This document shows, piece after piece, positions 4,729 through 12,402 of a stretch of 64,000 bases of DNA; within the stretch, counting starts at the first letter, position 1; each line of letters opens with the position of its first letter. Source of the stretch: the human T2T-CHM13v2.0 reference genome, Homo sapiens; assembly GCF_009914755.1 (NCBI RefSeq), contig NC_060948.1. One strand, 5' to 3'. The notes beneath the pieces were generated by a model. It did not search any database and had not been told where the DNA came from. It was given only the letters and a program-made list of their open reading frames with translations. A program made the translations under genes and the position numbers.

Positions 4729-4854
4729 AATTGATCATAAAATGTCAAGTACTCACATGAACTGTAAACTGAGGCACAGGCTATAATGAGTGAGATTGGC
4801 ACTATCAAGAAAGCTATTTGTATGGGAGAGAAGGAGAGATGAGTCCTGATTCAA
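4729..4854 (+). pseudogene. WWC3 (pseudogene): Unprocessed WWC3-like pseudogene, exon relic 1 (homologous to KIBRA-family exon 6)
   Basis: Acceptor ttttaatcag, then IDHKMSSTHMNCKL/(frameshift)/AQAIMSEIGTIKKAICMGEKER*VLIQ versus recalled WWC3 [43 protein letters not shown] (30/43 identical). Lesions: 4-nt deletion near 4771, TGA at 4840-4842, donor mutated to ATAAGG. Confidence 0.88.
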
Positions 4855-5016
4855 ATAAGGCTTGGGTACCACTGCTGGGCAGGCCTCTTATTTATCCACC
4901 TGTCCAACTGTGCCTAATTTCCTTTTACTTAAAAAAGAAAAGTGTGTATATGTATATGCTTAGTCCTCCCATCTTGGCCTCCTATAGTGCTGCCTCATCT
5001 ATGTCTATCTATGCAC

Positions 5017-6110
5017 GTTTTATTATTTTTAATTTATAATGGACAAATAACAATTGTACATATTTATAGGATACAAAGAGATATTTCAATGAATATATAC
5101 GTAGTACAATAATGAAATTGATGAAATAATTAGCATATTCATTAACCATTTGTTATTAACTTTAGTCATTTATCATTTCCTTGTGTTGACATTCTAACAT
5201 TACTCTGCCACGATCATGAAATATACAATACACTGCTTGTTGCTATAGTCACCCTACTGGGTAGATAGCACCAAATCTGATTTTTCATGTCTAATGCTAA
5301 CTTTGTACCTACTGACCAATCCGGTCTTTCTCAGTCCTCTACCTTGCTCATTCTCTGGTAACAACTATTCTACCCTGCTTCTGTATAAAATTCACTTAGG
5401 TTCTGCATATGAGTGACAACATGTGTTGTTTAATTTTCTGTGTGTGGCTTACTTCACTTATCATAATGTCTTCCAGCTTTTTCCATGTTTCAGCAAATGA
5501 AAGGATTTAATACTGTTTTATGGCTTAATAGTGTTTCATTGAATGTATATGCCATATTTTCTTTATCCATTAATCACTAGGCAATTAGGTTGATTCCCTA
5601 TCTTGGCTTTTGTGAATATTGCTGCAGTAAACATAGGTGTGCAGACGTGTTTCTGATATACTTCGTTTTTTTTTTACAGCTACATATACAGCAATTACTT
5701 TGCTGAGTCAGATGGTTATTGTAGTTTTAATTTTTAAAGTAAACTCCATACTATTTTTCATAGTGTTTATATTACTTTCCTTCACATCAACAGTGTGTTA
5801 GAATTGTCTTTTCTCTGTATTCTCATCTCATTAGTTATGTTTTGTCTTTTTAATAATATTAATTCTTATGAATATTATGTTATTCTTATTAATATTAGTT
5901 ATTAATCCTGATTAACATTAATTATTAATTTTATATTATTAATTCTTACTGGAGTAAGATGGTATCTCACTGTGGTTTTGACTTGCATTTTTCTGATTAT
6001 TAGTGATGTTAAGCATTTTTCATATATTTATTGGTCATACCTAAAAATCTATTAGGTATTTTTCCCATTTTTTAATTACATAATTTTTTCCTATTGCATG
6101 TATATTTTAA
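5017..6110 (-). mobile_element. L1MA-type 3' end with internal AT-rich expansion
   Basis: Typical L1MA 3'UTR and ORF2-end motifs (ggtaacaactattctac, ggagtaagatggtatctcactgtggttttg). Confidence 0.8.
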
Positions 6111-6929
6111 TATTTATCATACATAATGTATAACTAATTTTACGGACTTAAAGTGTGTTTTGAAAATAGGGGAAAAAGTCACATTGTTTAGCAATCAAAA
6201 TAATTTTGAAGGAGTTCTGCTATCACCATTTCCCCTCCTATGGCAACTTTATTTGTTCATTATTTATTAGTTTATAGTTTTATTTATTAGTTTATTGTGT
6301 ATGCATCTAACGTTTATGCACACACATAAAAATATGAATGCATATGCAACTGCCCTCATAACAAATTTACTTAGTAAGCACACTTTTCTATACTAGCTTA
6401 CTAATATATTATCCTACATGTGTACACTAAGAACTTTTTTGTTTTGTTATAGTTGTGTAATATTTCAGAGTTTGGATGTTTCTTTTTTATTTTTATTTAT
6501 TCATTTTTTGGTCCCTATTCTGTAGCTTCTGTTATTTTTATTAAAAAAATTGAGCTTTTGAAGATGGGTGCATGATGGTTATTTTGCTTAATTTTCTCTG
6601 TATTCTCATCAGTATTAGTTACTTTTTGCTTTTTTTATAGTATTAATCCTTACTGGAGTAAGATGGTATCTCACTGTGGTTTTGCCTTGCATTTTGCTTA
6701 ATGTTTGAGTGTATTCAGTTGTTTCTGTTTTTTTTTTTTGTTGTTGATTTAATCCTGTAAGTGAGCACCTAGCACTTTATAAACATTAGTCTAAATACCA
6801 TACAAGGTAAGACCTGCCGTATAAATGAAGTGAAGCTCAGACTCATAGGCAAAATGAGAGAAATATACAAATAACCATGTCTATTGTAGTGCTTTGTGAT
6901 GTCTCAGCTGTGGACAAATTGTCTAGTCT

Positions 6930-7045
6930 GAGTGATTATTAAAATGCAGATTATTGGGCCCCACCCTAGAACTACTGAAACGGAATCTATTTTTATGGGG
7001 CACAGAAATCTGTATTTATAAATGACCACTCAAGATTATAAAAAG
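6930..7045. mobile_element. MER5-family hAT fossil
   Basis: aaaatgcagattattgggccccaccctagaactactgaaacggaatct...aatctgtattt. Confidence 0.7.
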
Positions 7046-7330
7046 GCAATGATGAATTATTAGATTTACTGAATATTGGTAAGAAGAGTGGGTACCACTT
7101 ACTGAGGACTCCGTGTATGCAGAATTGAACAAGTTGCTCTGCATATATTACCCATATAGTGCTATCCAAAACCCCAAATATGTAAAAAGTGTGAATTAGG
7201 TGGTATTTCATGACAGGCTTCCCTGCAGGAGGTCAGCCAGTGTTCGTGCTATGCCTTCTCTCATACTATAATATACAGCACTGGGGTTTGCCACCAAATT
7301 GCCTTCTTGGGTTCTCCCCAATGGCAAAAC

Positions 7331-8180
7331 AATATATTAATAATTATTAATAATATTAATATATTATGCATTGCAATATATTGATTAATTAATATATAAT
7401 ATATTATTAATATAATATTACATTAATATAATCATATTAATTGTATATTAATTATTTTAAAATATATTATTAATGTATTATATCAATTACATTATGAATC
7501 ATATATTAATTATATACTTACAATTATATATTTATATATAATTATATAAATAATTATATGTATTATTTATATTAGCAATAACATATTAACATATTATAAT
7601 TAATACATAATAATATAAGCTAAATATATAATATATGCTTAATAGATTATAATATATTAATAACATATAATGATTACTATATCACAATATAGTAATACTA
7701 ATATTAATATACTGTTAGTTATAATATATTAATAATTATATAATGTATGATATGTTAATTAGTATGTATCATGATATATTAATAAATATATAATTATTAA
7801 TAAATAATGTAAAATATATTAATAAATAATGTATCATCCTATATTAATAATTAATATATCATATTATATAGTTACTGCAGTATAATAATATTTAATATAG
7901 TGTGATATATTAATGATTAATATAGTGATATATTAATGATTAATATAGTATGATATATACTGTATTATATATCATACTCCCAAAAATGTTTGTCAATCTA
8001 TGCTCTAAAAAAAGTCTGTTAATAAACATTTAAATTAAATTAATATAGTATATTATACTATGTTATATATCATACTATATTAAGCATTAATATATCATAC
8101 TATATTATCATACTATATATCATACTATATTATATAATATACTATGTTAATTATTAATATATCATGATATATTAATACAT
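7331..8180. repeat. AT-rich low-complexity tract with internal inverted repeats
   Basis: About 850 bp of degenerate TA/TAATA repeats. Inverted arms at 7927-7959/8064-8096 and 7947-7959/7966-7978. Confidence 0.9.
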
Positions 8181-10436: not shown

Positions 10437-10604
10437 AAACTGAATCACAAGAATAAAGGTAATAAGCCACCATGCCCAGCCATCTTTCCTTGACTGTACA
10501 TTTCCTTGGTTACTACAAACCTTTGACTGTTTTTCAGAACTCTTACAAAGTTGATTTAGACTGCTACTTCTTTTTGTGTAGATACAAATGCTTGGAGCTA
10601 CTGA
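10437..10604 (-). repeat. Right arm of 168-bp inverted repeat
   Basis: Inverted copy of 9162-9329. Its left junction contains the palindrome cagtttaaactg (10431-10442). Confidence 0.95.
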
Positions 10605-10741
10605 ATAGTTCTTTAATTACTTAGGTAGAATGTCCTAAAAATAGCAAGTAGGTTGCAGGCAAGTTATGCAGTTGTTATCCTTGTTTATGAGGCTGGCACT
10701 GGGCTGGCTGCTTCCCAGATATCATCTCATGGATGGAAGTA

Positions 10742-11042
10742 TTTTTTTTTTTTTTTTGAGACAGAGTTTTGTTCTTGGTGCCCAGGCTGGAGTGCAATGC
10801 CCTGATCTTGGCTCACTGCAACCTCTGCCTCCCATTTTCAAATAATTCTCCTGCCTCAGCCTCCTGTGGGTAGCTGGGACTACAGGCACTTGCCACGATG
10901 CCTGGCTAATTTTTGTATTTTTAGTAGGGATGGGGTTTCATCATGTTGATCAGGCTGGTCTCAAACTCCTGACCTCAGGTGATCCTCCTGCCTCGGCCTC
11001 CCAAAGTGCTGAGATTATATGCATGAGCCATAGCGCCTGGCC
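10742..11042 (-). mobile_element. AluSq/Sp inserted in a MIR relic (~10670-11160)
   Basis: gttttgttcttggtgcccaggctggagtgcaatg. TSD-like atggaagtatt / atgaaagtatt. Confidence 0.88.
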
Positions 11043-11224
11043 CCCCACATGAAAGTATTGTTGCATCCATGTTTGATGGGGAAACAGTTGTTAGTTTACT
11101 AAGGTCATGTAGCCAGGAGAGGCAGGTATGGGTTTAAATATTTCTGACTTCAAAACCATGTAAAATGTGTCAAAATATATATCAATAAATATATCAGATA
11201 TTCAAATATATTTTTTCAAGTGTT

Positions 11225-11542
11225 TCTTTTTGTTTGTTTCTTTATTTTTCTTTTGGTTGGGGGAAAGTGTCTTACTCTGTTGCCCTGGCTGGAGTACAGT
11301 GGCACAATCATGGCTCACTGCAGCCTCAAACTCCCAGGCTCAAGGGATCCTCCTGCCCCAACCTCCTAATTATCTGAGTCTGCAGGCATGCCCCTCCACG
11401 TCTTGCTAATTTTTAAATTTTTTTTGTATTTTCAGGACCTCCTTATGTTGCCCAGCCTGGTCTTGAAGTCCTGGTTTCCAGTAATTTGCCTGCCTCAGCC
11501 TCCCAAATTATTGGGATTACAGGTGTGAGCCACTGTGCCTGG
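11225..11542 (-). mobile_element. AluJ
   Basis: tcatggctcactgcagcctcaaactcccaggctcaag (J diagnostic); full dimer. Confidence 0.88.
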
Positions 11543-12328
11543 ACTGTTTTCAAATATGCCTTGACATGAAGTTATTAGAAATAAAAAGACTTATTGGTTA
11601 TAACATGTGGTCTAGTAAAGTGAGATCTATAGTTGGAGCAGGTTTATTGAAAATTCAGTTGTATGACTTTTCCAGAAAGGGAGAAGTAGTCAAGTTGAGC
11701 TATAGTTACCTTACATATGAATCTTTTTGTTTTCTCTAACATTTTATTCAGTTCAGTATAATTGATAATAAAAATATTTAAGTACAATTATTGAGTTCAT
11801 AACACCGTATTTTAAATCATACTACCCTTAAAGTAATATTCCCTTATACCAAGCATTTTTGATACTTTGTTTACCTTTTGTTCTTTTATATGCCATGAGA
11901 TATTGGAAGGATTCCTTTATTCCATACAACACACGACTCATTGGTCTTCTTAAGGTCTTGAACTTCTTACTAAATATCACTAATTTCTATTTACAAAGTG
12001 ATTTCCTTCTAAGAAAGTTTTTTTAGAAACTTCATTTCTTCTCATTGTATAAATTTATAAAACTGATTAGTACACTTTCACTGTTAAAAAAAAAAAAGTT
12101 CAGCAGTTTTGGTAAAGCGAAAAAAAAAAAAGCCATTCCCAACTCTTGTGGTCAAACATTCCTTAGAATGCTATTTGATCTAGCATTTTCTTCAGACTTT
12201 TTTAATAATTGAAATTGTGGAAAGATTAAAACAATATTATAAATTGTTGCTGAATGTTTAAATGGATTTTCTCTGTTGAGAATATGTTTTCAATATTATT
12301 TCCTTTTCTTTTTTTCTGCTCCTGAAAG

Positions 12329-12402
12329 TTTGATTTTCATCGTAAAACAAAGTTGGTACACCAACTAGGACTTAGTTGGCAGTATGAAGAAGCAAGAAAG
12401 AG
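12329..12402 (+). pseudogene. WWC3 (pseudogene): Unprocessed WWC3-like pseudogene, exon relic 2 (homologous to KIBRA-family exon 8, 74 nt)
   Basis: Polypyrimidine tract and AG acceptor; donor AG|GTAAGA. Open frame FDFHRKTKLVHQLGLSWQYEEARK(R) versus recalled WWC3 FVFDDKTRLVDRVRLNWQYEEARKR (16/25). Confidence 0.85.

What the first reader, a model, noticed from the sequence alone, without database searches (positions are those of the whole stretch)
4729..12402. Fossil intron-containing WWC3 copy: probable unannotated Y-chromosome gametolog relic
Seen: two exons 7.5 kb apart on the same strand, each with an acceptor, both missed by the ORF track. They translate to IDHKMSSTH..AQAIMSEIGTIKKAICMGEKER and FDFHRKTKLVHQLGLSWQYEEARKR. 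Known (recalled, not searched): both match WWC3, in the right order and at KIBRA-family exon boundaries; the sizes (126 nt plus a 4-nt deletion, and 74 nt) fit the 130-nt and 74-nt exons I recall. WWC3 lies in Xp22.2, near TBL1X, GPR143, SHROOM2 and AMELX, which have Y genes or relics. Inference: this is an unprocessed, long-dead copy in an L1-saturated setting, most simply a WWC3Y relic on a hominid Y. I do not recall such a relic in standard lists of human Y pseudogenes.
Basis: partly seen in the sequence, partly recalled or inferred. Interest (0 to 1): 0.85.

Follow-up and report, generated by a model that had tools for sequence, protein, structure and literature searches.

The report
Dead WWC3 gene remnant on Y
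This stretch of the human Y chromosome holds the decayed, intron-containing remains of the Y partner of the X-linked gene WWC3, an ordinary kind of Y-chromosome fossil that gene catalogues appear not to name.

Summary
Window 4729-4854 and 12329-12402 are relics of WWC3 coding exons 6 (130 nt on X) and 8 (74 nt on X). The only other genome matches to their DNA lie in X-linked WWC3 (chrX 9.673 and 9.681 Mb, E 2e-25 and 5e-20).

The two exons are not neighbours. X exon 7 lies between them and is missing on Y, where Alu-like sequence sits instead.

The relic is larger than reported. Twenty collinear, non-repeat blocks join Y window -36587..12447 to X WWC3 from intron 1 to exon 8. A third dead exon (exon 3) lies at window -6540..-6338. 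Exons 2, 4, 5, 7 and 9-23 were not found.

Divergence is K2P 0.24 overall and 0.30 inside the window. That equals the old 5' half of AMELX/Y (0.29) and is more than twice its 3' half (0.11). None of 14 placeable Alus is shared. It is therefore an ancient unprocessed gametolog remnant, not a recent copy.

The homology block is already in print as an "Anonymous" X-Y marker (Lemaitre 2009, Table 1), but not named as WWC3. My searches found no paper naming a human Y WWC3 pseudogene, and RefSeq annotates none.

Verdict: correct, ordinary, modest annotation novelty.

The parts
1..12447 (+). In-window part of the WWC3 relic. The whole recognised relic is a collinear chain of 20 non-repeat blocks from window -36587 (X 9630830, intron 1) to 12447 (X 9681158, just past exon 8), so it starts 36.6 kb upstream of the window. 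Within the window the first matching block starts at 4633. Window 1-4632 lies in a gap of the chain that on X holds exons 4 and 5.
   Evidence: Local blastn of Y -40000..64000 against X 9.59-9.79 Mb, keeping only blocks with at most 2 hits. Pooled ungapped identity is 80.0% and K2P 0.235 over 7075 aligned bases; the in-window part gives 75.6% and 0.298 over 1357 bases. A third exon relic (exon 3; X 9649822-9650025) lies outside the window at -6540..-6338: 184 of 203 bases identical, acceptor AG changed to AA, 1-nt deletion, two TAG stops.
4729..4854 (+). Relic of WWC3 coding exon 6 (X 9673307-9673436, 130 nt).
   Evidence: 98 of 126 aligned bases identical. 4-nt deletion, TGA at 4840-4842, donor GT changed to AT, acceptor AG kept. 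The X exon translation is 100% identical to primate WWC3.
12329..12402 (+). Relic of WWC3 coding exon 8 (X 9681041-9681114, 74 nt).
   Evidence: 57 of 74 bases identical, frame open, both splice sites kept. 8 of 25 residues differ from X.
4633..4859 (+). Homology block holding exon 6 and its flanks (X 9673210-9673441).
   Evidence: Ungapped identity 77.0%.
6758..7067 (+). Intron 6 homology block (X 9674853-9675167).
   Evidence: Ungapped identity 69.6%.
8440..8534 (+). Intron 6 homology block (X 9676090-9676185), the last block before the lost exon 7 interval.
   Evidence: Identity 80.0%.
8575..9140 (.). Alu-like sequence that stands where X has about 9676200-9676960, including exon 7. Exon 7 is gone from Y.
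   Evidence: The MAFFT alignment of Y 8400-10000 with X 9676050-9677600 shows no similarity across this interval. An Alu probe hits 8872-9125. tblastn finds no hit for residues 295-344.
9799..9963 (+). Intron 7 homology block (X 9677390-9677559).
   Evidence: Identity 80.0%.
11053..11145 (+). Intron 7 homology block (X 9678309-9678410).
   Evidence: Identity 85.9%.
11547..11784 (+). Intron 7 homology block (X 9679878-9680119).
   Evidence: Identity 73.8%.
12208..12447 (+). Homology block holding exon 8 and its flanks (X 9680916-9681158). This is the last block of the chain.
   Evidence: Identity 75.0%.
10742..11042 (.). Y-only Alu insertion inside the relic. A second one lies at about 11245-11542.
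   Evidence: Inter-anchor length comparison and Alu probe.

Best explanation
This is the decayed, unprocessed Y-linked gametolog of X-linked WWC3. When the X-added region of the proto-sex chromosomes stopped recombining, the Y kept its own WWC3. That copy later lost function and has since decayed by point mutation, small and large deletions, and Alu and L1 insertions.

What is shown:
- Three dead exons (3, 6, 8) survive, with patches of introns 1-7, in the original order and orientation over at least 49 kb.
- The rest of the gene (exons 2, 4, 5, 7, 9-23) is not detectable.

What is inferred:
- Recombination arrest was old: at stratum-3-like divergence, before the catarrhine-platyrrhine split and before most Alu activity.
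- The relic has no present function.

It lies beside AMELY and TBL1Y, whose X partners flank WWC3 on Xp22.2.
For: (1) Identity. Whole-genome DNA searches with each exon and its flanks hit only self and X WWC3. The X exon is 100% identical to primate WWC3 proteins. The Y peptide matches X WWC3 at 87% against WWC2 at 57%.

(2) Unprocessed. 7 collinear non-repeat blocks lie in the window and 20 in all, and they include introns.

(3) Dead. Exon 3 has a lost acceptor, a 1-nt deletion and two TAG stops. Exon 6 has a 4-nt deletion, a TGA and a lost donor. Only 3 of 23 coding exons are found in 104 kb of Y. Exons 9 and 11 have no Y match genome-wide, although the 44-60% identical WWC1 and WWC2 paralogs are found. 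The exon 1 region has no Y match.

(4) Old. K2P is 0.235 for the whole chain (n=7075) and 0.298 for the in-window part (n=1357). By the same method the AMEL 5' half gives 0.291 (n=2825) and the AMEL 3' half 0.112 (n=4135).
- 0 of 14 Alus in the 17 tightly bracketed inter-anchor intervals are shared between X and Y.
- In exon 6 the Y keeps the general mammalian residues N and Q at two sites where chimp, macaque and marmoset X share S and H.

(5) Context. AMELY and TBL1Y are the next genes (hub table). Lemaitre et al. 2009 Table 1 lists an 'Anonymous' X-Y marker between APXL and AMEL, stratum '3 (or 4)'. After scaling by the AMEL marker, its ends fall within about 100 bp (Y) and about 300 bp (X) of my chain end.
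Against: Nothing contradicts the main reading. Several points limit it.

- Divergence is uneven. The 2-kb block around exon 3 has K2P 0.175 and one intron 1 block 0.162, against 0.30 in the window. This is unexplained; conserved elements or an old X-Y conversion are possible.
- HSP-based identities favour the best-preserved pieces.
- One exon 6 residue (T) is shared by the Y and the simian X but not by the two strepsirrhines examined. This would fit a later split, or recurrent mutation.
- The tree of 'WWC3-like' proteins and the horse estimate of 56.9 MYA suggest WWC3 was still pseudoautosomal in early Laurasiatheria. That sits awkwardly with a pre-radiation arrest.
- I could not calibrate against TBL1X/Y, because the only attempt hit FAM199YP instead.
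- Expression was not testable.
Confidence: 0.93

Rival explanations
1. A later, secondary X-to-Y transposition or segmental duplication of part of WWC3, like the X-transposed region or FAM199YP, rather than a remnant by descent.
For: Such events do occur on this Y. A stretch in a TBL1Y intron (around FAM199YP) is 89-92% identical to Xq22.
Against: Identity is only 76-80%, at the level of the old AMEL 5' half. 0 of 14 placeable Alus are shared. The Y keeps pre-simian residues. The neighbours AMELY and TBL1Y are the Y partners of WWC3's X neighbours (hub table).
Confidence: 0.04
2. The relic, or part of it, still works. For example, exon 8 has an intact frame and both splice sites and might be used in a non-coding or chimeric Y transcript, or the better-preserved intron blocks might act as regulatory elements.
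For: Exon 8 has no lesion. Two blocks are less diverged than the rest (K2P 0.16-0.18). dN/dS over 128 codons is 0.26, below the roughly 0.65 expected for immediate death (my own expectation, derived from male-biased mutation).
Against: A 74-nt exon staying open by chance is unremarkable. No gene model lies there in RefSeq (hub table). The low dN/dS comes mainly from exon 3, whose flanks are also less diverged, and it speaks of past constraint, not present. No expression data were available.
Confidence: 0.03
3. Chance resemblance of short ORF fragments to WWC3.
For: None beyond the short length of each peptide.
Against: Genome-wide E-values are 2e-25 and 5e-20. The 20 collinear blocks include introns.
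Confidence: 0.005

Closest known systems
'Anonymous' X-Y marker 14 of Lemaitre et al. 2009 (Genome Biol Evol 1:56; PMC2817401, Table 1)
   Same: It is the same DNA. The marker spans X hg18 9925052-10026743 and Y hg18 2935524-6736276, lies between APXL and AMEL, and is assigned stratum '3 (or 4)'. When scaled by their AMEL marker, both ends of the marker near the window coincide with the end of my chain.
   Different: That paper treats it as an unnamed BlastZ concatenate. The words WWC3 and KIAA1280 occur 0 times in its text. It gives no exons, no lesions and no divergence for this block. I read Table 1 and passages, not the supplement.
Human X-degenerate unprocessed pseudogenes, such as the Y partners of GPR143 and SHROOM2
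   Same: Same kind of object: an intron-bearing, disabled Y copy of an Xp22 gene in the X-degenerate part of the Y. Pandey et al. 2013 list TBL1X, GPR143, SHROOM2 and AMELX as X genes with Y gametologs (one passage).
   Different: WWC3 is missing from that list, although on X it lies between SHROOM2 and AMELX. The relic is more eroded (3 of 23 exons) and is not annotated in RefSeq. The names of the Y pseudogenes themselves are recalled, not taken from a call.
WWC3Y of horse, alpaca and camels, grey wolf and red fox
   Same: A Y-linked gametolog of the same X gene (passages read in PMC6063916, PMC7830431, PMC6850511, PMC6627929).
   Different: Those are transcribed, largely intact genes near the pseudoautosomal boundary, and the horse split is dated to 56.9 MYA. 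The human copy is a ruin. [quoted passage not shown] In a tree of 28 proteins the caniform 'WWC3-like' copies branch inside Carnivora and the gray whale copy inside Cetacea. Those Y copies therefore arose separately from the human one. Their Y linkage is assumed from the papers, not shown here.
Processed pseudogenes (for example GOT2P5 in this window) and the X-transposed region
   Same: They are also non-functional X- or autosome-derived sequence on the Y.
   Different: The relic keeps its introns and exon spacing, so it is not processed. It is 76-80% identical to X, whereas the X-transposed region is about 99% identical (a recalled figure).

Membership tests
WWC3 (WWC/KIBRA family) by descent | Best match is WWC3 rather than the paralogs WWC1 or WWC2. 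| tested here: met
   The DNA of both exons hits only X WWC3. The exon 6 peptide matches X at 87% and WWC2 at 57%, with WWC1 not reported. The exon 3 peptide finds WWC3 proteins almost exclusively, at 78-86% (one listed row is named WWC2-like).
WWC3 (WWC/KIBRA family) by descent | Exon boundaries and sizes agree with the X gene. | tested here: met
   X exon 3 is 204 nt against 203 on Y. Exon 6 is 130 against 126. Exon 8 is 74 against 74. Boundaries align.
X-degenerate gametolog relic (unprocessed pseudogene) | Intron homology, collinear with the X gene. | tested here: met
   20 collinear non-repeat blocks over 49 kb of Y and 50 kb of X.
X-degenerate gametolog relic (unprocessed pseudogene) | Disabling lesions. 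| tested here: met
   Three stops, two frameshifts, two lost splice sites and 20 of 23 exons not found.
X-degenerate gametolog relic (unprocessed pseudogene) | Divergence at the level of an evolutionary stratum, not of a recent copy. | tested here: met
   K2P is 0.235-0.298, against AMEL 5' at 0.291 and AMEL 3' at 0.112. 0 of 14 Alus are shared.
X-degenerate gametolog relic (unprocessed pseudogene) | Neighbours on Y are partners of the gene's X neighbours. | tested here: met
   AMELY lies 6 kb beyond the window end and matches AMELX at X 10.87-10.88 Mb. TBL1Y follows it (hub table). Marker order is in Lemaitre Table 1.
X-degenerate gametolog relic (unprocessed pseudogene) | Orthologous relic present on other primate Y chromosomes. 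| not testable with these tools
   No primate Y sequence was available. No database protein is closer to the Y peptide than X-type WWC3.
Processed pseudogene | Intronless copy of the mRNA. | tested here: not met
   Exons lie 11 kb and 7.5 kb apart, with intron homology between them.
Functional WWC3Y gene | Open reading frame across the exons. | tested here: not met
   Stops and frameshifts in 2 of the 3 surviving exons.

The most novel reading that the evidence does not exclude
The relic is a neutral marker that helps settle a debated point. The X segment from WWC3 to AMELX intron 2 diverged from the Y at the old, stratum-3-like level. The low divergence of the AMEL 3' half would then be a local island (gene conversion), not the stratum 3/4 boundary. 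The old/young transition in the human lineage would lie distal to WWC3, possibly at SHROOM2|WWC3, the same place where carnivores and camelids have their pseudoautosomal boundary today.

In addition, dN/dS of 0.26 would mean that a primate-lineage WWC3Y stayed functional for a good part of its history before dying, in parallel with independently formed WWC3Y genes that still live in horse, camelids and canids.
Probability: 0.3. Interest if true: 0.45.

Novelty: new member of a known kind. Interest (0 to 1): 0.25.

Why it matters
It adds one named entry (a WWC3 Y pseudogene with exon-level anatomy) to the catalogue of ancestral genes that left traces on the human Y. It also fills the gap between SHROOM2 and AMELX in published gametolog tables.

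Its practical use is as a neutral X-Y marker, 1.2 Mb distal to AMELX, for the disputed stratum 3/4 boundary. It also offers a comparison point for WWC3Y genes that survive in other mammals.

It changes no principle. Such relics are expected in X-degenerate sequence, and the homology block has been in print, unnamed, since 2009.

Tried and rejected
- The 5' end of the relic stayed open. A DNA search with X 9600001-9610000 was swamped by Alu matches and gave no Y information. Y -50000..-40000 has almost no match to the X locus: 2 hits, one of them a 79-nt collinear hit at X 9605451. So the link to the part that Lemaitre's table places near ZFY is unverified.
- The exon 1 region search found no Y partner. 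It gave only minisatellite-like hits at C24 5.2 Mb that also occur on several autosomes.
- Calibration against TBL1Y failed.
So I could not test whether window 32-64 kb belongs to the AMEL block, as Lemaitre's Y range suggests. A search with Y 6512001-6518000 showed only an old L1.
- Iwase 2003 and Ross 2005 are not held. What I say of them comes from passages in Lemaitre 2009 and Katsura 2012.
- I considered whether the R-to-Q change in exon 8, shared by the human Y relic and by caniform and gray whale 'WWC3-like' proteins, marks one ancient Y lineage. I rejected this. The codon is CGA changed to CAA at a CpG, and the tree places those copies inside their own orders.
- Trombetta 2014 does not mention this region: 0 occurrences of 5 terms.

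
Full report
**What is there**

Window 12329-12402 gives the 25-residue peptide in one frame.

In searches of the whole assembly, the DNA of each stretch with its flanks matched only itself and one place on contig C23. C23 is 154,259,566 bp long and is the X chromosome.
- Stretch 1 matched X 9673266-9673441 (76% identity, E 2.2e-25).
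- Stretch 2 matched X 9680986-9681129 (76% identity, E 4.9e-20).
- In each search both candidates of the first look were scored.

The two X places are in the same order, on the same strand, and 7.7 kb apart, against 7.6 kb on Y.

**The X locus is WWC3**

The translation of the X exon is 100% identical to WWC3 proteins of chimpanzee, macaque, marmoset and others. 255 of 256 candidates passed E 0.001, and the named proteins among the 120 listed are WWC3.

With the 1217-residue chimpanzee protein, a local tblastn on 200 kb of X gave 23 coding exons from 9598111 to 9724043 (whole-genome version). They are not neighbours: exon 7 (X 9676657-9676815) lies between them.

**WWC3 rather than its paralogs**

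- The Y exon 6 peptide matches X WWC3 at 87% (E 1.7e-4). It matches WWC2 on chromosome 4 at 57% (E 9.4). WWC1 was not reported (3 matches of 4 candidates).
- The Y exon 3 peptide, read with X at its two stops, found 243 proteins. Nearly all the named proteins among the 120 listed are WWC3 (one is named WWC2-like; a few are unnamed or fused models). Listed identities run from 78% to 86%, and none is higher, so the database holds no protein that shares the Y-specific changes.

**Unprocessed, and larger than reported**

A local blastn of the window against X 9.59-9.79 Mb was filtered to blocks that are not multi-copy. It gives 7 collinear blocks between window 4633-12447 and X 9673210-9681158, five of them purely intronic.

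After fetching 40 kb upstream, the chain grows to 20 blocks. It runs from window -36587 (X 9630830, intron 1) to 12447 (X 9681158).

It includes a third exon relic outside the window, exon 3 at -6540..-6338. This was also the only Y hit in the whole-genome protein search.

A further 10 kb upstream (-50000..-40000) is almost empty of X matches. It holds 2 hits, one of them a collinear 79-nt match.

**Dead**

| Exon relic | Lesions |
|---|---|
| Exon 3 | acceptor AG changed to AA, 1-nt deletion, two TAG stops |
| Exon 6 | 4-nt deletion, TGA stop, donor GT changed to AT |
| Exon 8 | none |

- Exon 7 is gone. The X interval of about 9676200-9676960 has no counterpart, and Alu-like sequence stands at window 8575-9140.
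- Exons 2, 4 and 5 fall in X intervals without Y counterpart and give no tblastn hit.
- In 104 kb of Y, 3 of 23 coding exons are recognisable.
- Genome-wide, exons 9 and 11 have no Y match, although WWC1 and WWC2 at 44-60% identity are found.
- The exon 1 region has no Y match.
- The whole-protein search used a stricter filter and itself missed the Y relics of exons 6 and 8. Absence of the small 3' exons is therefore less certain.

**Age**

The table gives ungapped identity and K2P over the chain blocks, with AMEL measured by the same method as a yardstick.

| Region | Aligned bases | Identity | K2P |
|---|---|---|---|
| WWC3 chain, all blocks | 7075 | 80.0% | 0.235 |
| Intron 1 part | 2228 | 81.3% | 0.217 |
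| Exon 3 part | 3490 | 80.9% | 0.223 |
| In-window part | 1357 | 75.6% | 0.298 |
| AMELY/AMELX 3' half | 4135 | 89.7% | 0.112 |
| AMEL 5' half plus upstream | 2825 | 76.2% | 0.291 |

- The AMEL figures reproduce the published drop from about 30% to about 10% within this gene (cited in Lemaitre 2009, passages). The WWC3 relic belongs with the old class.
- Of 14 Alus (8 on Y, 6 on X) in the 17 inter-anchor intervals short enough to judge, none is shared. The one interval with Alus on both sides has them in opposite orientation. Two long gaps holding 6 Y and 12 X Alu hits could not be judged.
- In exon 6 the Y keeps N and Q at two sites where chimp, macaque and marmoset X share S and H, and where most other mammals examined have N and Q (16 species). 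The X-Y split therefore predates the catarrhine-platyrrhine ancestor.
- Against an old date, one T is shared by the Y and the simian X but not by the two strepsirrhines.

**Other mammals**

WWC3Y is a described Y gene in horse, alpaca, grey wolf and red fox. The horse split is dated to 56.9 MYA, and the pseudoautosomal boundary lies between SHROOM2 and WWC3 in alpaca and canids (passages).

I built a tree from 28 proteins, chosen from the roughly 190 fetched.
- The wolf, brown bear and walrus 'WWC3-like' proteins form a clade (SH-aLRT 100) inside Carnivora.
- The gray whale one sits inside Cetacea.
- If these are the Y copies, X-Y differentiation of WWC3 arose separately in those lineages. The human-lineage arrest then probably falls after the split from Laurasiatheria and before the simian radiation. 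This bracket is inference.

An R-to-Q change in exon 8 is shared by the human relic and those proteins. It sits at a CpG codon and is best read as recurrent.

**Past constraint**

dN/dS over 128 codons is 0.26 (34.0 non-synonymous and 24.0 synonymous differences). My expectation for a copy that died at once is about 0.65. The signal comes mostly from exon 3 (90.6% identical), whose flanks are also less diverged. I treat it as a weak hint that the Y copy worked for a time.

**What is known**

Lemaitre et al. 2009 (Table 1 read in full) list a new 'Anonymous' marker.
- X position (hg18): 9925052-10026743.
- Y position (hg18): 2935524-6736276.
- It lies between APXL and AMEL and is assigned stratum '3 (or 4)'.

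I scaled coordinates by their AMEL marker and my AMEL alignment. The marker's Y end then falls at about window 12550 (my chain ends at 12447), and its X end at about 9681440 (my chain ends at 9681158). It is the same block.

That paper does not name WWC3 or KIAA1280 (0 occurrences). Its Y range implies that the 5' part lies near ZFY, across the X-transposed region, which I could not verify.

Pandey et al. 2013 tabulate X genes with Y gametologs. They list TBL1X, GPR143, SHROOM2 and AMELX but not WWC3 (one passage).

Full-text searches gave the following.

| Search terms | Papers found |
|---|---|
| WWC3 + Y chromosome + pseudogene | 6, none on a human Y copy by title or abstract; passages read in 3 |
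| WWC3Y | 4, all non-primate |
| WWC3P | 0 |
| WWC3, KIAA1280, X-degenerate, MSY (at least 2 of the 4) | 113, of which 15 were listed |

RefSeq has no model there (hub table). GENCODE, HGNC, supplements, and the papers of Ross 2005, Iwase 2003, Hughes 2012 and Bellott 2014 were not seen.

**Verdict**

This is an ordinary X-degenerate fossil, more extensive and more eroded than described. Its homology block is already published without a name. The gene-level identification and anatomy appear to be new but incremental.

Noticed in passing
L034 (C24 6601025-6603123; window about 153025-155123, outside the window): A non-repeat 2.1-kb stretch inside TBL1Y, around the annotated 191-bp FAM199YP, matches Xq22 (C23 102623665-102626370) at 89-92% over about 2 kb. 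It has no match to TBL1X. This looks like a genomic X-to-Y transposed fragment much larger than the annotated pseudogene.
   Followed up: no
L030/L031 (C24 6518003-6528605; window about 70003-80605): AMELY against AMELX switches from 87-90% identity (3' half) to 65-77% (5' half and upstream) near Y 6524003-6524742. A Y-only Alu at 6524003-6524300 sits at the switch, and the X coordinates of the flanking blocks overlap by about 15 bp there. On X the old 5' side faces distally, towards WWC3.
   Followed up: partly
window 24077-24306, 24929-25182, 45176-45430, 62512-62771: Four copies of one element of about 255 bp, each matching X 9731626-9731882 at 79-90%. A fifth lies at window -42281..-42093. 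The repeat family was not identified.
   Followed up: no
window about 57000-64000 and on to C24 6517005: An old L1-like element (about 80% identical to copies on many chromosomes) fills the window's end and the 5 kb beyond it, up to the 3' end of the AMELY homology (hub repeat list).
   Followed up: no
window -50000..-40000 (L033): 97% of this 10 kb has no blastn match at all to 200 kb of the X WWC3 region, not even Alus. The nature of the sequence was not determined.
   Followed up: no
proteins P0145, P0078, P0188, P0119: 'WWC3-like' proteins of wolf, brown bear, walrus and gray whale are 82-93% identical to their species' or a close relative's WWC3. The three caniform ones form one clade, which suggests a caniform-wide WWC3Y. 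All four carry the same R-to-Q change in exon 8 as the human Y relic.
   Followed up: partly
X 9597410-9597654 (L006) and C24 5204813-5205267: A tandem-repeat-like stretch just upstream of WWC3 exon 1 matches a repeat on the Y at 5.2 Mb and similar arrays on chromosomes 3, 11 and 12 at 68-70%. It is probably a minisatellite family, not X-Y homology.
   Followed up: no
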